A stretch of DNA of 64,000 nucleotides from Eledone cirrhosa. Taxonomy: Eukaryota. The number at the start of each line of letters is the position of its first letter. The first letter of the stretch is position 1. The notes under the pieces are model-generated. The model worked only from the letters and a program-made list of their open reading frames with translations. It made no database searches and had not been told where the DNA came from. Both the position numbers and the translations under genes were made by a program. The stretch spans positions 344,906,001-344,970,000 of the forward strand of contig OZ024742.1 in NCBI GenBank assembly GCA_964016885.1. The letters run 5' to 3'. Shown here in pieces: positions 25,725 to 31,970 of the stretch.

Positions 25725-25952
25725 TATATGAAATATAAGAATCAAAGAACTGTTCAAAACATTATTGTGCTTACAGCTGTTTCCTCCAAACCGAGGTTTG
25801 GATTCTTCGGAGCAATTTATTAATGCATGGACAGTTATATGACTGTCCATGCATTAATAAATTGCTCCGAAGAATCCAAACCTCGGTTTGGAGGAAACAG
25901 CTGTAAGCACAATAATGTTTTGAACAGTTCTTTGATTCTTATATTTCATATA
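25725..25952. repeat. Perfect inverted repeat, 111-bp arms with 6-nt spacer (duplicate ~46642-46869)
   Basis: 25725-25835 is the reverse complement of 25842-25952; spacer TATATG. Confidence 0.95.
25863..25909 (+). ncRNA. Minimal type I hammerhead-like motif, core variant CCGAAGA (mirror copy 25768-25814 on -)
   Basis: TGCT-CCGAAGA-A-TCCAAAC-CTCG-GTTTGGA-G-GAAA-CAGCTG-TA-AGCA: stem I TGCT/AGCA, 7-bp stem II, palindromic stem III, GUA triplet; U4 replaced by C. Confidence 0.7.
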
Positions 25953-26056
25953 TATATATATATATATATATATATATATATATATATATATATATATATA
26001 TATATATATATATATATATATATATATATATATATATAAATATATATATATATATA

Positions 26057-26665
26057 TGGTGGCTGCCAACTCGTTTTCGAGTATGGCCACTACTTTATAT
26101 CCATGTAGGAGAACCCCTACCGATGCGCTGAACGAGTGTGACTTTTTAGTCCAGCCAGCAACTTGAAAACTCTGGTACACACACTACACCTGTGACAATT
26201 ATTGACACATAGTGCTGGACCTTTGGTACCATGTGACGACAAGTGCAGAGAGATCTCCAGATATAAAGCAATGCCTGTGCCGTGAAGCTTCTATAGTGAG
26301 CAAAGGCACTGCACAAAGAGAGTCCCACTCTCTTAACCAAGATGATATTTACCAAAAAGAAGAACAAGTCAACATCATTGGATACCATCAGAGTTGCAGG
26401 TGTTATATCAGAGTTTTCCTTCTCCTAGAATTCCGCCTTGACAAAGGCTAAGGGGTCATCTCTCCCGGTGATTTTGGATGGTCATTGACTCTTAAGAGCT
26501 CCTTTTCCCTTTGACAGGTTTTGGTTTTAGTCCTGCAGGATGTCCAAAGTCACCCTCCTCACCAAGAAACCTTGGTGGGGTTGCCAGTTTAGTCGCCAAC
26601 GACCCGACCATGAGACAGGTTGTACTGGGAAACATGTTACCAGTAGCACCAACTGGTGACCTGAC
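26057..26665 (-). mobile_element. ~610-bp non-autonomous RTE-derived (bipartite) element
   Basis: Reverse complement of 57363-57971; flanked by (TA)n on both sides. Confidence 0.75.
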
Positions 26666-26698
26666 ATAATATATTTATATATATATATATATACATAT

Positions 26699-26749
26699 AG
26701 TTTCAGAAGATCCCGTTAACGGTGAAAGCAGCGATTCTTTGCTTAAACT
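26699..26749 (+). ncRNA. Degenerate hammerhead-like motif (core CAGAAGA; duplicate 47616-47666)
   Basis: AGTTT-CAGAAGA-TC-CCG-TTAA-CGG-T-GAA-AGCA-GCGATTCTT-TGCT-T-AAACT: three stems in HHR order; U4 replaced by A. Confidence 0.55.
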
Positions 26750-26775
26750 TTAATCTGTTATATACATATATATAT

Positions 26776-28066: not shown

Positions 28067-29110
28067 TTAATTGTATGTTGTGATGTTGCTATTCCATTCA
28101 TGCTTTCTATTTAATTTTGGTTGGAGTTCATTTATGTTTATTGCCTCTGTGATTTGTCTAAACATTGTGTCTTTTCTGTGTGTAGATTCTATTTTTATTT
28201 CTATGTTCGTTAATGGACCCTTATGTTCTATGTACTATTTTAGCATGTTGGTAGTGTAAAGATGATTCTTTACTATCTTGAAGCTCTCGCTAGTGTTCAT
28301 TCATCCGTTCTCCTATACTACGAGCTGTCTCACCTCTGTACACTATATTCTTATCTCTACATTGTCCTTCAGTACATCTTATGCTATATACTACATTTCT
28401 AGTTTTACAGTTAATATGGGGGTTTAGTTTACAGATTATACATTTCTTATCTATACAGGGAGGTCTTTGAAAAGGGTATGTACCCGGTAAATGGGTAAAT
28501 ATACAGTCGCTACGTGTGCATAGCCTCTGACGTAGTGAGTAGCAGCATATTTGGGGGTTTCTAGTATGTGTAGTGGGAGGTGCATACAGCACCACAGATC
28601 TTTTTTTTATAGTTCTTTTGACTATGGCATGGCTTTGGTGGTGATGATGATGATGACAACTGTGGTGGGAGAGAGAGAGAGAGCAGTGGTCCATTACTAG
28701 CAGTTGGTGTGGCAGGAGATGGTGACGGTGCTGTTGGTGATGGCGATAATGATGGCTGAGTGAGTGGCTGAGTGATGCTGTCATTCAGTAGTTCGGCGAT
28801 TATGCTTGAATTCAGAAGTGGTTGCTCCTGGCTTTCTGGCTGTTGTTGTTGTTGTGGCTGTTTTTGTTGTTGTTGTGACTGTTGTTGTTGTTGTTGTGTT
28901 TGTCCATTAGAGTAAATATGTCGAAGTTTTGTTGTGTATCTGCTTAACAGATCTCGTCGTAAATGTTTGGGCTGTTTTTTCAGCAATTTCATTCAGACAT
29001 GAGGCCTTAATGTTTGATGTTTGTGACAGAGAAAACAATGTGTTTATTAAGACGTCAATCTCATTTTCAGACCAATTTCGTCCGGTGTGGGCTTGCTGGT
29101 CAGTAGTCAT
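28067..29110 (-). pseudogene. Disrupted ORF: Myb/SANT-like domain + polyQ/Pro-Ser linker + PLE-type GIY-YIG endonuclease, no RT
   Basis: Joined frames read RNWSENEIDVLI...IAEK...RSVKQIHNK/LRHI, polyQ, PST-rich, CxxxxCxxC, NCKTRNVVYSIRC...YRGETARSIGERMNEH*, then RQITEAININELQPKLNRKHEW. Two extra A's in A-runs, one stop, one 7-nt duplication. Confidence 0.75.
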
Positions 29111-29524
29111 ATTTTTTTAATTATTTATATATATATATATATATTTTTTTTTTTTTAAAACCTGGCGGAGACCTTCTCCTCTCCATGTCTGAATACAGCA
29201 GATTTCTTCCAGGGAAAGATAGAGAATGGGTGAGAAACAGGAAGTGATTAAGAGATATAGAGGAGGAATCAACCTCAGTACCTGACTAGTATTATATATA
29301 TATATATATATATATATGCATAATTATGTCTCATATAAAATAATACAACTGGCTATCCGCAAAATACATATAGTTAGCACCCCAAACGTAAAATTGGGAT
29401 TATACTAAGGTATATCCTAATGTTTGTTGAGTGAGATGGAAGCAGTCAGAGTATTGCTTAAAGCTTTCTCTGTTAATGTATTAAATATATATATATATAT
29501 ATATATATATATATATATATATAT

Positions 29525-30337
29525 ATATATGGAAAAGAAAGAAATGAAATTTCATTTCTCACTCTTAGTACGGCTGATACTTAAATATAAGTATGTATAC
29601 GTACATACATATATGTATACAGACGTACAGCAGTATGTATATATATACATACATGCACACGTATATAAATGTACGTATGGGTTTACCGAACATTTATTAT
29701 AATGTTCGGTTTGTTTGTAAACACAGCCCGAACTAAACCGTACAGTGTTCGGCAACCATCAAGGCGATTTTGTTCAACACTGACAAAGGAACGATGAACT
29801 AGTTTCAAGCTTATTAGCTATCGTCAGCATCCTGTCAGATGATTGAACGTTTGAAAGTATATACTTTCCTTATGCATATTAACGGCTGAGCAGCCTAATT
29901 TGTATATCGAGTGAGTTAGACGGCCGGGCGTACCGAAAACGATATATGGAAAAGAATGAAATGAAATGAAATTTCTCACTCTTAGTACGGCTGATACTTA
30001 AATGTAAGTATGTATACGTACATACATATATCTATACAGACGTACAGTAGTATGTATATTTATATACATACATGCACACATATATATATATGTACGTATG
30101 GGTTTACCGAACATTTATTATAATGTTTGGTTTGTTTGTAAACAAAAGGGCGACAATGGTTGCCGAACACTGTACGGCTTAATTCGGGCTGTTTGTTTAC
30201 AAACAAACCGAACATTATAATAAAAATATTCGGTAAATCCATACGTACATATATATATGTGTGCATGTACGTATATATATATACATACTACTGTACGTCT
30301 GTATACATATATGTATGTACGTATACATACTTACATA
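29525..30337. mobile_element. Retrozyme-like unit: 417-bp monomer x ~1.5 plus inverted partial copy (duplicate ~50468-51280)
   Basis: Direct repeat of period 417 (29531/29948 and 29561/29978). ~30155-30337 is the reverse complement of ~29587-29759. The monomer contains an HHR. Flanked by (TA)n. Confidence 0.7.
29793..29831 (-). ncRNA. Minimal type I hammerhead ribozyme with canonical core (duplicate 50736-50774)
   Basis: Minus strand GATG-CTGACGA-T-AGCT-AATA-AGCT-T-GAAA-CTAG-TT-CATC; palindromic stem III. Stem I extends with bulges (CTGACA/TGTCAG, GTTCAA/TTGAAC). Confidence 0.8.
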
Positions 30338-30382
30338 TATATATATATATATATATATATATATATATATATATATATATAT

Positions 30383-31970
30383 AAAAGGAATTCTAACTTT
30401 GTCTGATTTACTCGTTTTATTTACAATCCTTTAAAATTATAATGATATTAAAATGAAATAGTATGGTAGAATATTAAATGTTAAGTGTTAATTGAACAAG
30501 TACTTTCATGCTTTCGCAATCTTTAGGTTCATATTCAGTGGTGACAGTCAAGTTTGCAATTTTCAACTGTAATGAGATGGCTAAAATCTGTGCCTTATAT
30601 ACAGTAAAAATCTGTATTTCGACCAATCGGTGTGTGGTTTCACTAGATTACTAAAGCTGATTGGTTTAGGCGTCACGGTTAGTTGAGCATGTCTAACGAC
30701 TTCTATTTGACCCTATCCAAAGCATCAATTGTTTTGCTATTTTTAGAAATGATGAAAATAGCATTTTCTAGGGTTTTTATTAAAAATCTTCAGTAATCAT
30801 CAACATCAACATCACTTTTATTATTATTATTGTTGTTGTTGTTAGTGGTGGTAGTCGACATAGTCGTAGTAGAAGTAATACCCCTAAGCATTATTATTGT
30901 TCATTTAGCTTGGGTTGGAATTTATCAATATAATTCTTTTCTTTAATTTTTCTCTTGATTTCACTTGGGCTGTGTAGTTTGTAGAATGGAAATATTATAA
31001 ATATTTTCAGACCACATGTTGCTAGATGGTTACTCAGGGGTATCTGACGGACATTTGGGTCTCTGATTTGCTGTCGGTGCACCTGTGCACGTTCCGATAC
31101 TGCATTTCCAGTTGACCGACATATATTTCTTCACAATTCGGGCATTTAATGTAGTAAATTCGATTTCTCCTTTTGCAGTTCATATTTGCATTTGGGAATA
31201 CTTTTCCAGTTTTTGTGTTCATATATTGACCAGTGTGTGTGGATTGACATGTGCCGCATTTAGATACAGTGAATGATTGGTCTTTGTTTTAAGGTCAAAC
31301 TTTGCCTTTGTTAGTAATTGCTTCAAATTTTTCGGCTGTCTTTTACTAAGAGTCAAAGATCGGTCTGTGATTGAACCTTTTAATTCATTACTTTGAGCAA
31401 TGATCGGTAGGTTTGCTTTGGCAGTGTTGAAGATATTCTGGTGACATGGGTTGTGTGTCATTATAAATGGTATGACCAGTTCTTGGTTTCTTCTTCCTTG
31501 GGTTGTCCTAAGTTGTTGTATAGGTATTTTTATAGCCCGCTGTATGCCATTTTTTATAAGTAGAGATGGGTATTTTTGTTTGAGCAAAAATTCTCTGTTC
31601 TGTTAGGCGTTTGTTCCTGGTATTCGTAATTCTACAATGGTACAAATTCTTCTGGCTAGGCAGTATGGGATGTTGCGTTTTGTATGAGGTGGATGGCACG
31701 ACTTAAAATTCAGATATTGATGGGTGTCTGTGTGTTTATAGTATATATCCGTGGTAATGGTGGTGTCGTTTTTGATTATCATTATATCTAGGAATGGTAA
31801 TTTGGTACTACCCATCTCTTTTGTAAATTGGAGAGATAGTTGTAGGTTATTAAGGAGGATATTGAACTAATCCAGAGTATCTAGAGATTCTGTCCAGATG
31901 ATGAAACAGTCGTCAAGGTATCTCTTCCAAGACCTTTCAATGTACTTTCTAAATTCAGTGCTAAATTTTT
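30383..31970 (-). mobile_element. Penelope-like element 3' half, cut by the duplication breakpoint
   Basis: RYLDDCFIIW, LPFLDIMI, YYKHTDTHQYLNFKSCHP, GIY-YIG (IYYIKCPNCEEIYVGQ ... FQPKLN). Abuts satellite at 31970/31971. Confidence 0.92.
30493..30531 (-). ncRNA. Degenerate hammerhead in the PLE 3' region/pLTR (core CTAAAGA; duplicate 51436-51474)
   Basis: Minus strand TGAAC-CTAAAGA-T-TGC-GAAA-GCA-T-GAAA-GTAC-TT-GTTCA. G5 replaced by A, so probably inactive. Same strand as, and downstream of, the PLE ORF. Confidence 0.65.

What the first reader, a model, noticed from the sequence alone, without database searches (positions are those of the whole stretch)
25768..30531. Hammerhead island: eight HHR motifs of six distinct families within 4.8 kb next to a satellite
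Seen: motifs with stem I-CUGANGA-stem II-GAAA-stem III-NUH-stem I' topology at 25768(-), 25863(+), 26699(+), 26791(-), 27250(+), 27838(-), 29793(-) and 30493(-). Four have canonical cores; four have single core substitutions (CCGAAGA x2, CAGAAGA, CTAAAGA). The set is repeated in the duplicate at ~46.7-51.5 kb. Known: minimal type I HHRs mark PLE pLTRs and animal non-LTR retrozymes, and those with palindromic stem III can act as dimers. Inference: this (TA)n-rich patch is a shared landing pad for many PLE-mobilised RNAs. It could also cleave read-through transcripts from the satellite on both strands.
Basis: partly seen in the sequence, partly recalled or inferred. Interest (0 to 1): 0.72.

Follow-up and report, generated by a model that had tools for sequence, protein, structure and literature searches.

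The report
Pile of Penelope retroelement ribozyme ends
Eight real hammerhead-ribozyme motifs sit in 4.8 kb of animal DNA, two of them just behind broken genes of Penelope-like jumping genes; they are likely the left-over ends of six such elements that landed in the same TA-repeat patch, most predicted to be damaged or unable to fold, so this is likely ordinary transposon debris rather than a working RNA-cutting device.

Summary
Observation confirmed. All eight motifs are at the stated places. A covariance model built only from unrelated Penelope-like element (PLE) ends ranks them and their duplicates as the top 16 of 25 hits; shuffles give 0.017 per region. They are six insertion events. Two lie downstream of decayed GIY-YIG/RT reading frames. 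Three events have the inverted or partial-tandem shape of PLE insertions. Public reads show two families are very abundant in two organisms and end in (TA)n. The landing-pad idea is supported as ordinary (TA)n targeting. Cleavage of satellite read-through is not supported: five of eight motifs carry core or stem damage, the inverted pairs are predicted to be buried in long hairpins, and palindromic ones lack a tandem partner. The second set is a 99.6% tandem duplicate, not a replicate. Genome-wide enrichment is untested (no genome held). One loose end: the CAGAAGA core of site 3 seems common in its family. The scan noted similar hammerhead-bearing PLE ends in other genomes.

The parts
25768..25814 (-). 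HHR site 1: core CCGAAGA (U4C), 8-bp stem II on an A.G mismatch, palindromic stem III; left arm of a 228-bp palindrome
   Evidence: 16.3 bits
25863..25909 (+). HHR site 2: identical inverted copy of site 1; its arm ends in (TA)n 38 nt downstream
25564..25952 (.). Event A: divergent inverted insertion between (TA)n runs; left arm about 170 nt longer than the right (one-sided tail)
   Evidence: sequence; boundaries read by eye
26699..26749 (+). HHR site 3: core CAGAAGA (U4A), 5-bp stem III; short 5'-truncated copy between TA runs of a very abundant family; base 26720 is a private change in stem II
   Evidence: 16.9 bits
26791..26843 (-). HHR site 4: canonical core, U.U at base of stem II; stem III broken by a private change at 26800
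   Evidence: 19.2 bits
27250..27302 (+). HHR site 5: canonical core, stems of 7, 4 and 4 bp; best-formed monomer; predicted cut after 27295
   Evidence: 17.4 bits
26776..27383 (.). Event C: element on the + strand ending in (TA)n at 27384, with an inverted copy of its 3' part (26776-26894 = 27199-27317, 94%) that lacks the last 66 nt
27838..27880 (-). HHR site 6: canonical core, unpaired nucleotide before a 6-bp stem II, stem III one base off a palindrome; about 230 nt downstream of a GIY-YIG fragment
   Evidence: 19.6 bits
28106..28460 (-). PLE-2: decayed C-terminal GIY-YIG endonuclease fragment preceded by a CX4CX2C linker
   Evidence: E 7e-7 against P0007
29793..29831 (-). HHR site 7: canonical core, U.U at base of stem II, palindromic stem III, long interrupted stem I; predicted cut between 29797 and 29796
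   Evidence: 25.8 bits
29525..30339 (-). Event E: non-coding ~417-bp unit with a half-unit tandem copy (29942-30144, 93%) and an inverted piece (30156-30339, 91%), between (TA)n runs; retrozyme-like or pLTR-only insertion
30493..30531 (-). HHR site 8: core CTAAAGA (G5A), U.U at base of stem II, palindromic stem III; about 370 nt downstream of the PLE-1 reading frame
   Evidence: 31.5 bits, E 1.5e-6
30897..31971 (-). PLE-1 reading frame, 3' part (RT catalytic motif, thumb, GIY-YIG), with stops and frameshifts; cut at 31970 by the duplication junction; the longer copy spans 51840-53966
26058..26665 (.). Unrelated ~0.6-kb repeat between TA runs, no HHR found; further copies near 57365-57970 and 58165-58750
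10949..52913 (.). Tandem duplication of about 21 kb (satellite block plus unique patch); junction at 31969/31970 with 2-bp microhomology; holds the second set of motifs (46687-51474)
1..22367 (.). 50-bp satellite (second block about 31970-43284); holds no HHR

Best explanation
The eight motifs are type I hammerhead folds, and they are likely the 3' ends (pseudo-LTRs) of six Penelope-like retroelements or their non-coding passengers that were likely copied one after another into (TA)n microsatellites; most are predicted to be inactive where they now lie. Steps: (1, shown) two motifs follow GIY-YIG/RT reading frames at the distance seen in related PLEs. (2, shown for two families) family ends run into (TA)n across the genome. 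(3, inferred) a PLE endonuclease nicks (TA)n, reverse transcription starts just downstream of the ribozyme and usually stops early, often adding an inverted or partial tandem copy, so the ribozyme-bearing end is what survives. (4, inferred) each insertion splits a TA run and leaves more targets, and a gene-free satellite margin does not purge them. (5, inferred) the copies then decay neutrally. (6, shown) a recent ~21 kb tandem duplication doubled the patch.
For: PLE-1 RT: 329 homologues of 529 candidates, best full-length ones 66-67% identical, many with C-terminal GIY-YIG; mapped on the window. 34 of 54 related loci that include the endonuclease end (27 of 35 with at least 400 nt downstream) have a canonical core 81-507 nt downstream, and 8 of the 34 have the same U.U closure as sites 3, 4, 7 and 8. 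Their stems covary: 82.7% of cells paired against 50.5% shuffled, 0 of 500. A model built on 18 of them puts the window's 16 motifs at ranks 1-16, 16.3-31.5 bits, next hit 12.8. Reads: 7,087-16,053 records laid per run in two organisms; loose ends after the family 3' ends are TA-rich (2,049 and 2,036 reads at 26776; 676 at 27378); many strand-switch joints. Private changes: other base in 96-97% of RAD reads at 26720, about 93-94% at 26800, 98-99% at 27275. Papers: opposite-strand pairs 100-700 bp apart and thousands of solo minimal HHRs (PMC4209133); inverted truncated copies, one-sided tails and microsatellite bias (PMC8557442); insertion next to earlier PLE copies (PMC6765202); low activity of CUGA mutants (PMC9901934).
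Against: Four of the six events have no reading frame beside them, so their driver is inferred. Only two of six families were checked against reads. One-sided tails here are about 50, 66 and 170 nt, longer than the 30-40 bp described. A third PLE end at 61810-62212 has no detectable HHR behind it. The genome background is unknown. Inactivity is predicted, not measured; co-transcriptional folding may differ from the minimum-energy hairpins; U4C and U.U variants can keep some activity.
Confidence: 0.85

Rival explanations
1. The patch is a selected insulator that cuts read-through transcripts from the satellite on both strands.
For: Motifs lie on both strands (3 plus, 5 minus); four cores are canonical; site 5 is predicted to fold as a monomer on its own (-10.1 against a minimum of -10.5 kcal/mol); local density is higher than in the rest of the window.
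Against: Divergent inverted pairs put the antisense arm first and are predicted to bury sites 1, 2, 4 and 5. Sites 7 and 8 have different palindromes and no same-sense twin nearer than 20.9 kb. Private damaging changes in sites 3 and 4; G5A at site 8 where the downstream motifs of relatives have a canonical core. The right-hand satellite results from the duplication.
Confidence: 0.04
2. Some events (site 7 above all, perhaps 3 and 4/5) are non-LTR retrozymes that move through circular RNA and use PLE enzymes in trans, rather than truncated autonomous PLEs. This is compatible with the main reading.
For: Site 7 lies in a non-coding ~417-bp unit present 1.5 times in tandem, with a long stem I. 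Families 3 and 4/5 have monomer-type stem III. Some reads join family 4/5 head to tail at a 77-nt period (56 reads from 15 starts, 21 from 7 starts).
Against: No two consecutive units with a complete HHR in the window, which the preprint's definition demands. The 77-nt joint could be one or a few loci. Inverted pieces and tails fit PLE insertions equally well.
Confidence: 0.35
3. The cluster is only the upper tail of a random spread of very many HHR-bearing repeats, with no local attraction.
For: Two families alone reach roughly 3.5 and 2.4-2.5 copies per Mb by RAD depth (biased by cut sites), and the scan picked this patch after the fact. Per TA run the excess is not significant (6 of 20 against 1 of 17, p 0.10).
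Against: 0 intact motifs in 15.6 kb of other unique DNA in the window; TA content 9.4% in the patch against 2.9% elsewhere.
Confidence: 0.25
4. The motifs are chance matches to a short pattern.
For: Rfam hammerhead models give no hit; four cores are non-canonical.
Against: Shuffles, the independent model, position behind PLE frames and family bases that improve the helices.
Confidence: 0.01

Closest known systems
Minimal type I hammerheads in pLTRs of metazoan EN+ Penelope-like elements (Cervera and de la Pena 2014, PMC4209133; parts 1-2 of 4 read)
   Same: Type I topology, 4-5 bp helix I, palindromic helix III, unpaired nucleotide before helix II (site 6), several families per genome, solo copies, opposite-strand pairs 100-700 bp apart.
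   Different: G10.1-C11.1 is replaced by U.U in four families here; three families have a changed core; six families in 5 kb is not described in the text I read.
Neptune/Nematis-type EN+ PLEs and their insertion shapes (Craig et al. 2021, PMC8557442; passages read)
   Same: RT then C-terminal GIY-YIG, CX2-5CxxC linker, 5' truncation, partial tandems, inverted copy, one-sided tail, microsatellite bias.
   Different: Tails are longer than 30-40 bp; the clade was not placed by a tree with named references; all frames here are broken.
Animal non-LTR retrozymes (Cervera and de la Pena 2020, PMC7229834, passages; Li et al. 2026 preprint 10.64898/2026.07.22.740005, part 1 of 5)
   Same: Non-coding unit of 150-450 bp with a type I HHR (site 7); U.U at the base of helix II as in axolotl HHR_Amex2.
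   Different: No two full units in tandem here; circular RNA not shown.
Natural hammerhead core variants (Perreault et al. 2011, PMC3088659; section 8 and passages)
   Same: U4C and U10.1.U11.1 are known natural variants.
   Different: U4A (site 3) was not in the text I read; the figure that lists variants is not held.

Membership tests
Type I hammerhead ribozyme | Three helices around CUGANGA / GAAA / NUH in type I order | tested here: met
   Topology in 8 of 8; canonical core in 4 of 8; stem III broken in site 4
Type I hammerhead ribozyme | Helices supported by covariation | tested here: inconclusive
   Met for the HHRs of related PLEs. For the window's own families only unphased rows: common bases restore helices at 26720, 26800 and 27298, and one C-G to A-U swap in stem I is inferred from separate rows
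Type I hammerhead ribozyme | Self-cleavage at the NUH site | not testable with these tools
   Needs an in vitro assay or end-specific RNA-seq
EN+ Penelope-like element (Neptune/Nematis type) | RT followed by C-terminal GIY-YIG endonuclease | tested here: met
   PLE-1; endonuclease fragment only for PLE-2; not present for the other four events
EN+ Penelope-like element (Neptune/Nematis type) | CX2-5CxxC linker before the endonuclease | tested here: met
   Present in PLE-2 and in the PLE-1 homologue alignment; partly deleted in PLE-1 itself
EN+ Penelope-like element (Neptune/Nematis type) | HHR in the pLTR downstream of the reading frame | tested here: met
   Sites 6 and 8 at about 230 and 370 nt; relatives 81-507 nt
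EN+ Penelope-like element (Neptune/Nematis type) | Partial tandem or inverted truncated copies, one-sided tail, microsatellite target | tested here: met
   Three events; TA-rich loose ends; tails longer than typical
EN+ Penelope-like element (Neptune/Nematis type) | Clade placement by RT phylogeny with named references | not tested
Non-LTR retrozyme (site 7 unit) | Non-coding monomer of 150-450 bp with a type I HHR | tested here: met
   About 417 bp, no match to PLE proteins
Non-LTR retrozyme (site 7 unit) | At least two consecutive units each with a complete HHR | tested here: not met
   1.5 units, one HHR; not filed as a member
Non-LTR retrozyme (site 7 unit) | Expression as circular RNA | not testable with these tools
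   Needs RNA of the organism

The most novel reading that the evidence does not exclude
The site 3 family is an abundant mobile element, shared by two organisms, whose hammerhead keeps a full extended helix I and a 5-bp helix III but carries CAGAAGA instead of CUGAAGA. Either U4A is a working natural core, or the CAG, which follows a U-rich tract in the family, is a 3' splice site, so that splicing supplies the missing CUG and switches the ribozyme on.
Probability: 0.1. Interest if true: 0.6.

Novelty: new member of a known kind. Interest (0 to 1): 0.24.

Why it matters
As it stands it matters little: it is a dense but ordinary record of Penelope-like elements targeting TA microsatellites. It is a compact teaching example of PLE insertion shapes, and shows that Rfam misses these ribozymes while a small custom model finds them. 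It would matter more if the U4A family proved active or splice-activated (a new hammerhead variant or control mode), or if it proved dead yet amplified to thousands of copies, which would support the view that PLE hammerheads are not needed for retrotransposition (PMC11167929; PMC8557442).

Tried and rejected
No genome is held, so the genome-wide density test was not possible. Rfam: no hammerhead, HDV or twister hit in the window at E up to 5 or in two sub-regions at E up to 10. Sequencing-run search: no RNA holder listed. Two exact-pattern scans of viral contigs for families 3 and 4/5 found nothing. My first scan of related loci was too strict (3 of 45 eligible loci); the looser scan gave 27 of 35 under slightly different eligibility, and that looser scan had no shuffle control of its own. 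Weak candidates not counted: 29832(+) and 60917(-) (absent) and 24180-24231(-) (12.8 bits, E 0.46). The idea that the satellite derives from, or is inserted in, the PLE RT was rejected: the copy at 52913 continues without satellite, so 31970 is a duplication junction. Heterodimers between sites 7 and 8 were rejected by eye: their palindromes differ. The drop in depth upstream of helix I in family 4/5 (about 3,800 to 460) was not taken as proof of clustered 5' truncation, because a second subfamily with a different upstream sequence explains part of it. The constrained energy for site 1 is invalid (2-nt loop) and was ignored. Earlier-findings look-ups by place, relatives and sequence were empty. 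Lunse et al. on dimeric PLE hammerheads is not held; I saw only its title in a reference list, and it may describe U.U or core variants. No supplements were read; those of PMC4209133 and PMC3088659 may list such variants.
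Full report
Setting. The window is AT-rich animal DNA: a 50-bp satellite at 1-22367 and about 31970-43284, with repeat-filled DNA between and after. The nearest named relatives of its retroelement protein are from bivalves, so the host is probably a mollusc (inference). No genome is held. The stretch 22362-31970 recurs at 43281-52913 with 99.6% identity, the differences lying almost all in microsatellites. 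The satellite blocks also match: 99.8-100% in 8 of 11 one-kb pieces, with shifts of whole units. This is a ~21 kb tandem duplication whose junction at 31969/31970 cuts a PLE reverse transcriptase and joins it to satellite through 2 bp of microhomology. The second set of motifs is therefore no independent evidence, and the satellite to the right of the patch is a product of the duplication.

The observation. A descriptor search found 7 of the 8 motifs at the stated coordinates, plus two weak extras; 300 shuffles gave a mean of 0.017. The eighth, 26791(-), has a broken stem III and appears in the looser scan. Rfam found none. For an independent test I fetched 91 loci encoding relatives of the PLE protein. 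Of 54 that include the endonuclease end, 34 have a canonical core with a hairpin 81-507 nt downstream (27 of 35 with at least 400 nt of sequence), and 8 of the 34 close stem II with U.U. I aligned 18 of the 34: the 20 with a palindrome-type stem III from mostly closer relatives, less two near-duplicates. Their stems covary strongly (82.7% of cells paired against 50.5% shuffled; these motifs were chosen for a stem II hairpin, so that helix is not a free test). The model built on them ranked the window's 8 motifs and 8 duplicates at places 1-16 of 25 hits, 16.3-31.5 bits, with the next at 12.8. Only sites 1/2 and 4/5 resemble each other: six families and six insertion events.

Anatomy. Site 8 lies about 370 nt downstream of PLE-1, an RT plus GIY-YIG frame with stops and frameshifts, 66-67% identical in the RT piece to its best full-length homologues. 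Site 6 lies about 230 nt downstream of a second, distinct GIY-YIG fragment. Both have, or descend from elements with, the CX2-5CxxC linker that marks Neptune and Nematis PLEs. Sites 1/2 form a 228-bp palindrome between TA runs. Sites 4/5 are the 119-bp inverted arms of a ~0.6-kb insertion. Site 7 lies in a non-coding ~417-bp unit with a half-unit tandem copy and an inverted piece. In all three, one arm lacks the terminal stretch of the other. Site 3 is a ~65-bp stub between TA runs. These are the shapes described for PLE insertions: partial tandems, an inverted truncated copy, a one-sided tail, microsatellite bias (PMC8557442, passages), and opposite-strand HHR pairs 100-700 bp apart (PMC4209133, parts 1-2).

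Families in public reads. I laid 4 of the 8 listed runs on 26690-27380, which covers sites 3, 4 and 5 only. Between 7,087 and 16,053 records were laid per run, in two organisms; organism B holds the HHR-bearing ends but not 27026-27193. RAD depth divided by letters read gives about 3.5 and 2.4-2.5 copies per Mb, a rough figure because of cut-site bias. Loose ends behind the 3' ends are TA-rich (about 2,000 reads per RAD run at 26776; also 27377-27378), and about 1,700-1,900 reads continue into an alternative tail at 26761. The window's copies carry private changes: at 26720 and 26800 the common base restores stem II of site 3 and stem III of site 4, and at 27275 the common base gives U.U. Upstream of site 3 the family consensus of loose ends can pair with the sequence just downstream of the motif (9 bp, read by eye), extending helix I across an internal loop. 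In family 4/5 a C-G to A-U swap in helix I is inferred from two unphased rows. U.U at 10.1-11.1 is a known tolerated variant (PMC3088659 section 8; PMC7229834 passages).

Function in place. Both inverted pairs are divergent, so a read-through transcript on either strand makes the antisense arm first; hairpins of 228 nt (-195 kcal/mol) and 542 nt (-252) are predicted. Minimal PLE hammerheads need a partner and cleave weakly even then. Sites 7 and 8 have different palindromes and no same-sense twin nearer than the duplicate, 20.9 kb away. Changes in CUGA lowered activity in a complete mutational scan of one hammerhead (PMC9901934 passages), although U4C retains some function in a viroid. By this reasoning only sites 5 and 7 are well-formed, one predicted to be buried and one lacking a partner. 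A role in cutting satellite transcripts has no support; double-stranded RNA is the more likely product of read-through (inference).

Is the density special? Six events in 5.06 kb against none intact and one partial in 15.6 kb of other unique DNA gives p 0.0002-0.001, but the patch was chosen after the fact, and per TA run the difference is 6 of 20 against 1 of 17, p 0.10. TA runs cover 9.4% of the patch and 2.9% of the rest, partly as a result of the insertions. PLEs are said to insert into or beside earlier copies (PMC6765202 passages). Local attraction by TA targets is the likely cause; a chance extreme in a genome with many such families is not excluded.

The loose end. Private changes of the window's copies show up at 93-99% of reads. 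No row for 26705, the A of CAGAAGA, is among the 40 printed of 178, and the weakest printed row reaches 68% in its best run. If rows were kept by share, and this near-edge position was scored, A is common in family 3 in both organisms. U4A was not in the sections of PMC3088659 that I read, and a search for hammerhead with U4A listed no paper about it (the two listings containing the term concern small RNAs and the spliceosome by title and were not read). In the family the CAG follows a U-rich tract, like a 3' splice site. An intron ending at helix I of the Drosophila virilis Penelope hammerhead is described; a search for a splice site inside the core listed one unrelated paper. The simplest reading is a weak or dead ribozyme carried by a successful family, in line with ribozyme mutants not affecting insertion in vitro (PMC11167929 passages). 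I give an active or splice-activated form 10%.

Verdict. Observation confirmed; interpretation partly supported. These are new members of a known kind: hammerhead-bearing PLE ends heaped in (TA)n. Interest 0.24.

Noticed in passing
window 60422-60514: 93-bp palindrome made of two inverted 3' halves of the site 4/5 hammerhead (no CUGANGA part), beside a short TA run; a further member of that family.
   Followed up: partly
window 26058-26665, 57365-57970, 58165-58750 (and duplicate near 46975-47585): A ~0.6-kb repeat, 89-95% identical between copies, always beside TA or TATG runs, with a hairpin at one end and no Rfam hit; a second kind of (TA)n-seeking element. Part of it recalls the 5' region of RTE-type elements (recalled, not tested).
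   Followed up: partly
window 53970-57265: Decayed non-LTR retrotransposon sequence (endonuclease-like frame on the minus strand, RT-like frames on the plus strand, named by eye as RTE-like) that truncates PLE-1 at a short TA run.
   Followed up: no
window 61690-62250 (+): A third PLE end (linker plus GIY-YIG, Pfam E 3e-4) starting right after (TA)n, with no detectable hammerhead in the C-rich 1.2 kb behind it.
   Followed up: partly
reads laid on window 26780-26839: Head-to-tail joints with a 77-nt period in family 4/5 (56 reads from 15 starts; 21 from 7 starts): possibly very short hammerhead tandem arrays, below the usual retrozyme size, or one partial tandem locus.
   Followed up: no
window 24553-25543: Element with a 37-bp minisatellite (6.4 copies), a terminal hairpin and a CTAG end, like a non-autonomous Helitron (recalled pattern).
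   Followed up: no
window 63568-63960 (+): Frame resembling the helicase of a Helitron (recalled; no informative Pfam hit).
   Followed up: no
window 1-22367 and 31970-43284: The 50-bp satellite consensus contains one TTAGGG; the two duplicated blocks differ mainly by gain or loss of whole units (shifts of 149, 300 and 50 bp), with almost no substitutions.
   Followed up: partly
L081-L091: Eleven bacterial genome records hold relatives of this animal-type PLE protein, mostly on short contigs; likely host contamination.
   Followed up: no
window 24180-24231 (-): Weak ninth hammerhead-like match (canonical CUGAAGA, no GAAA; 12.8 bits, E 0.46); not counted.
   Followed up: partly
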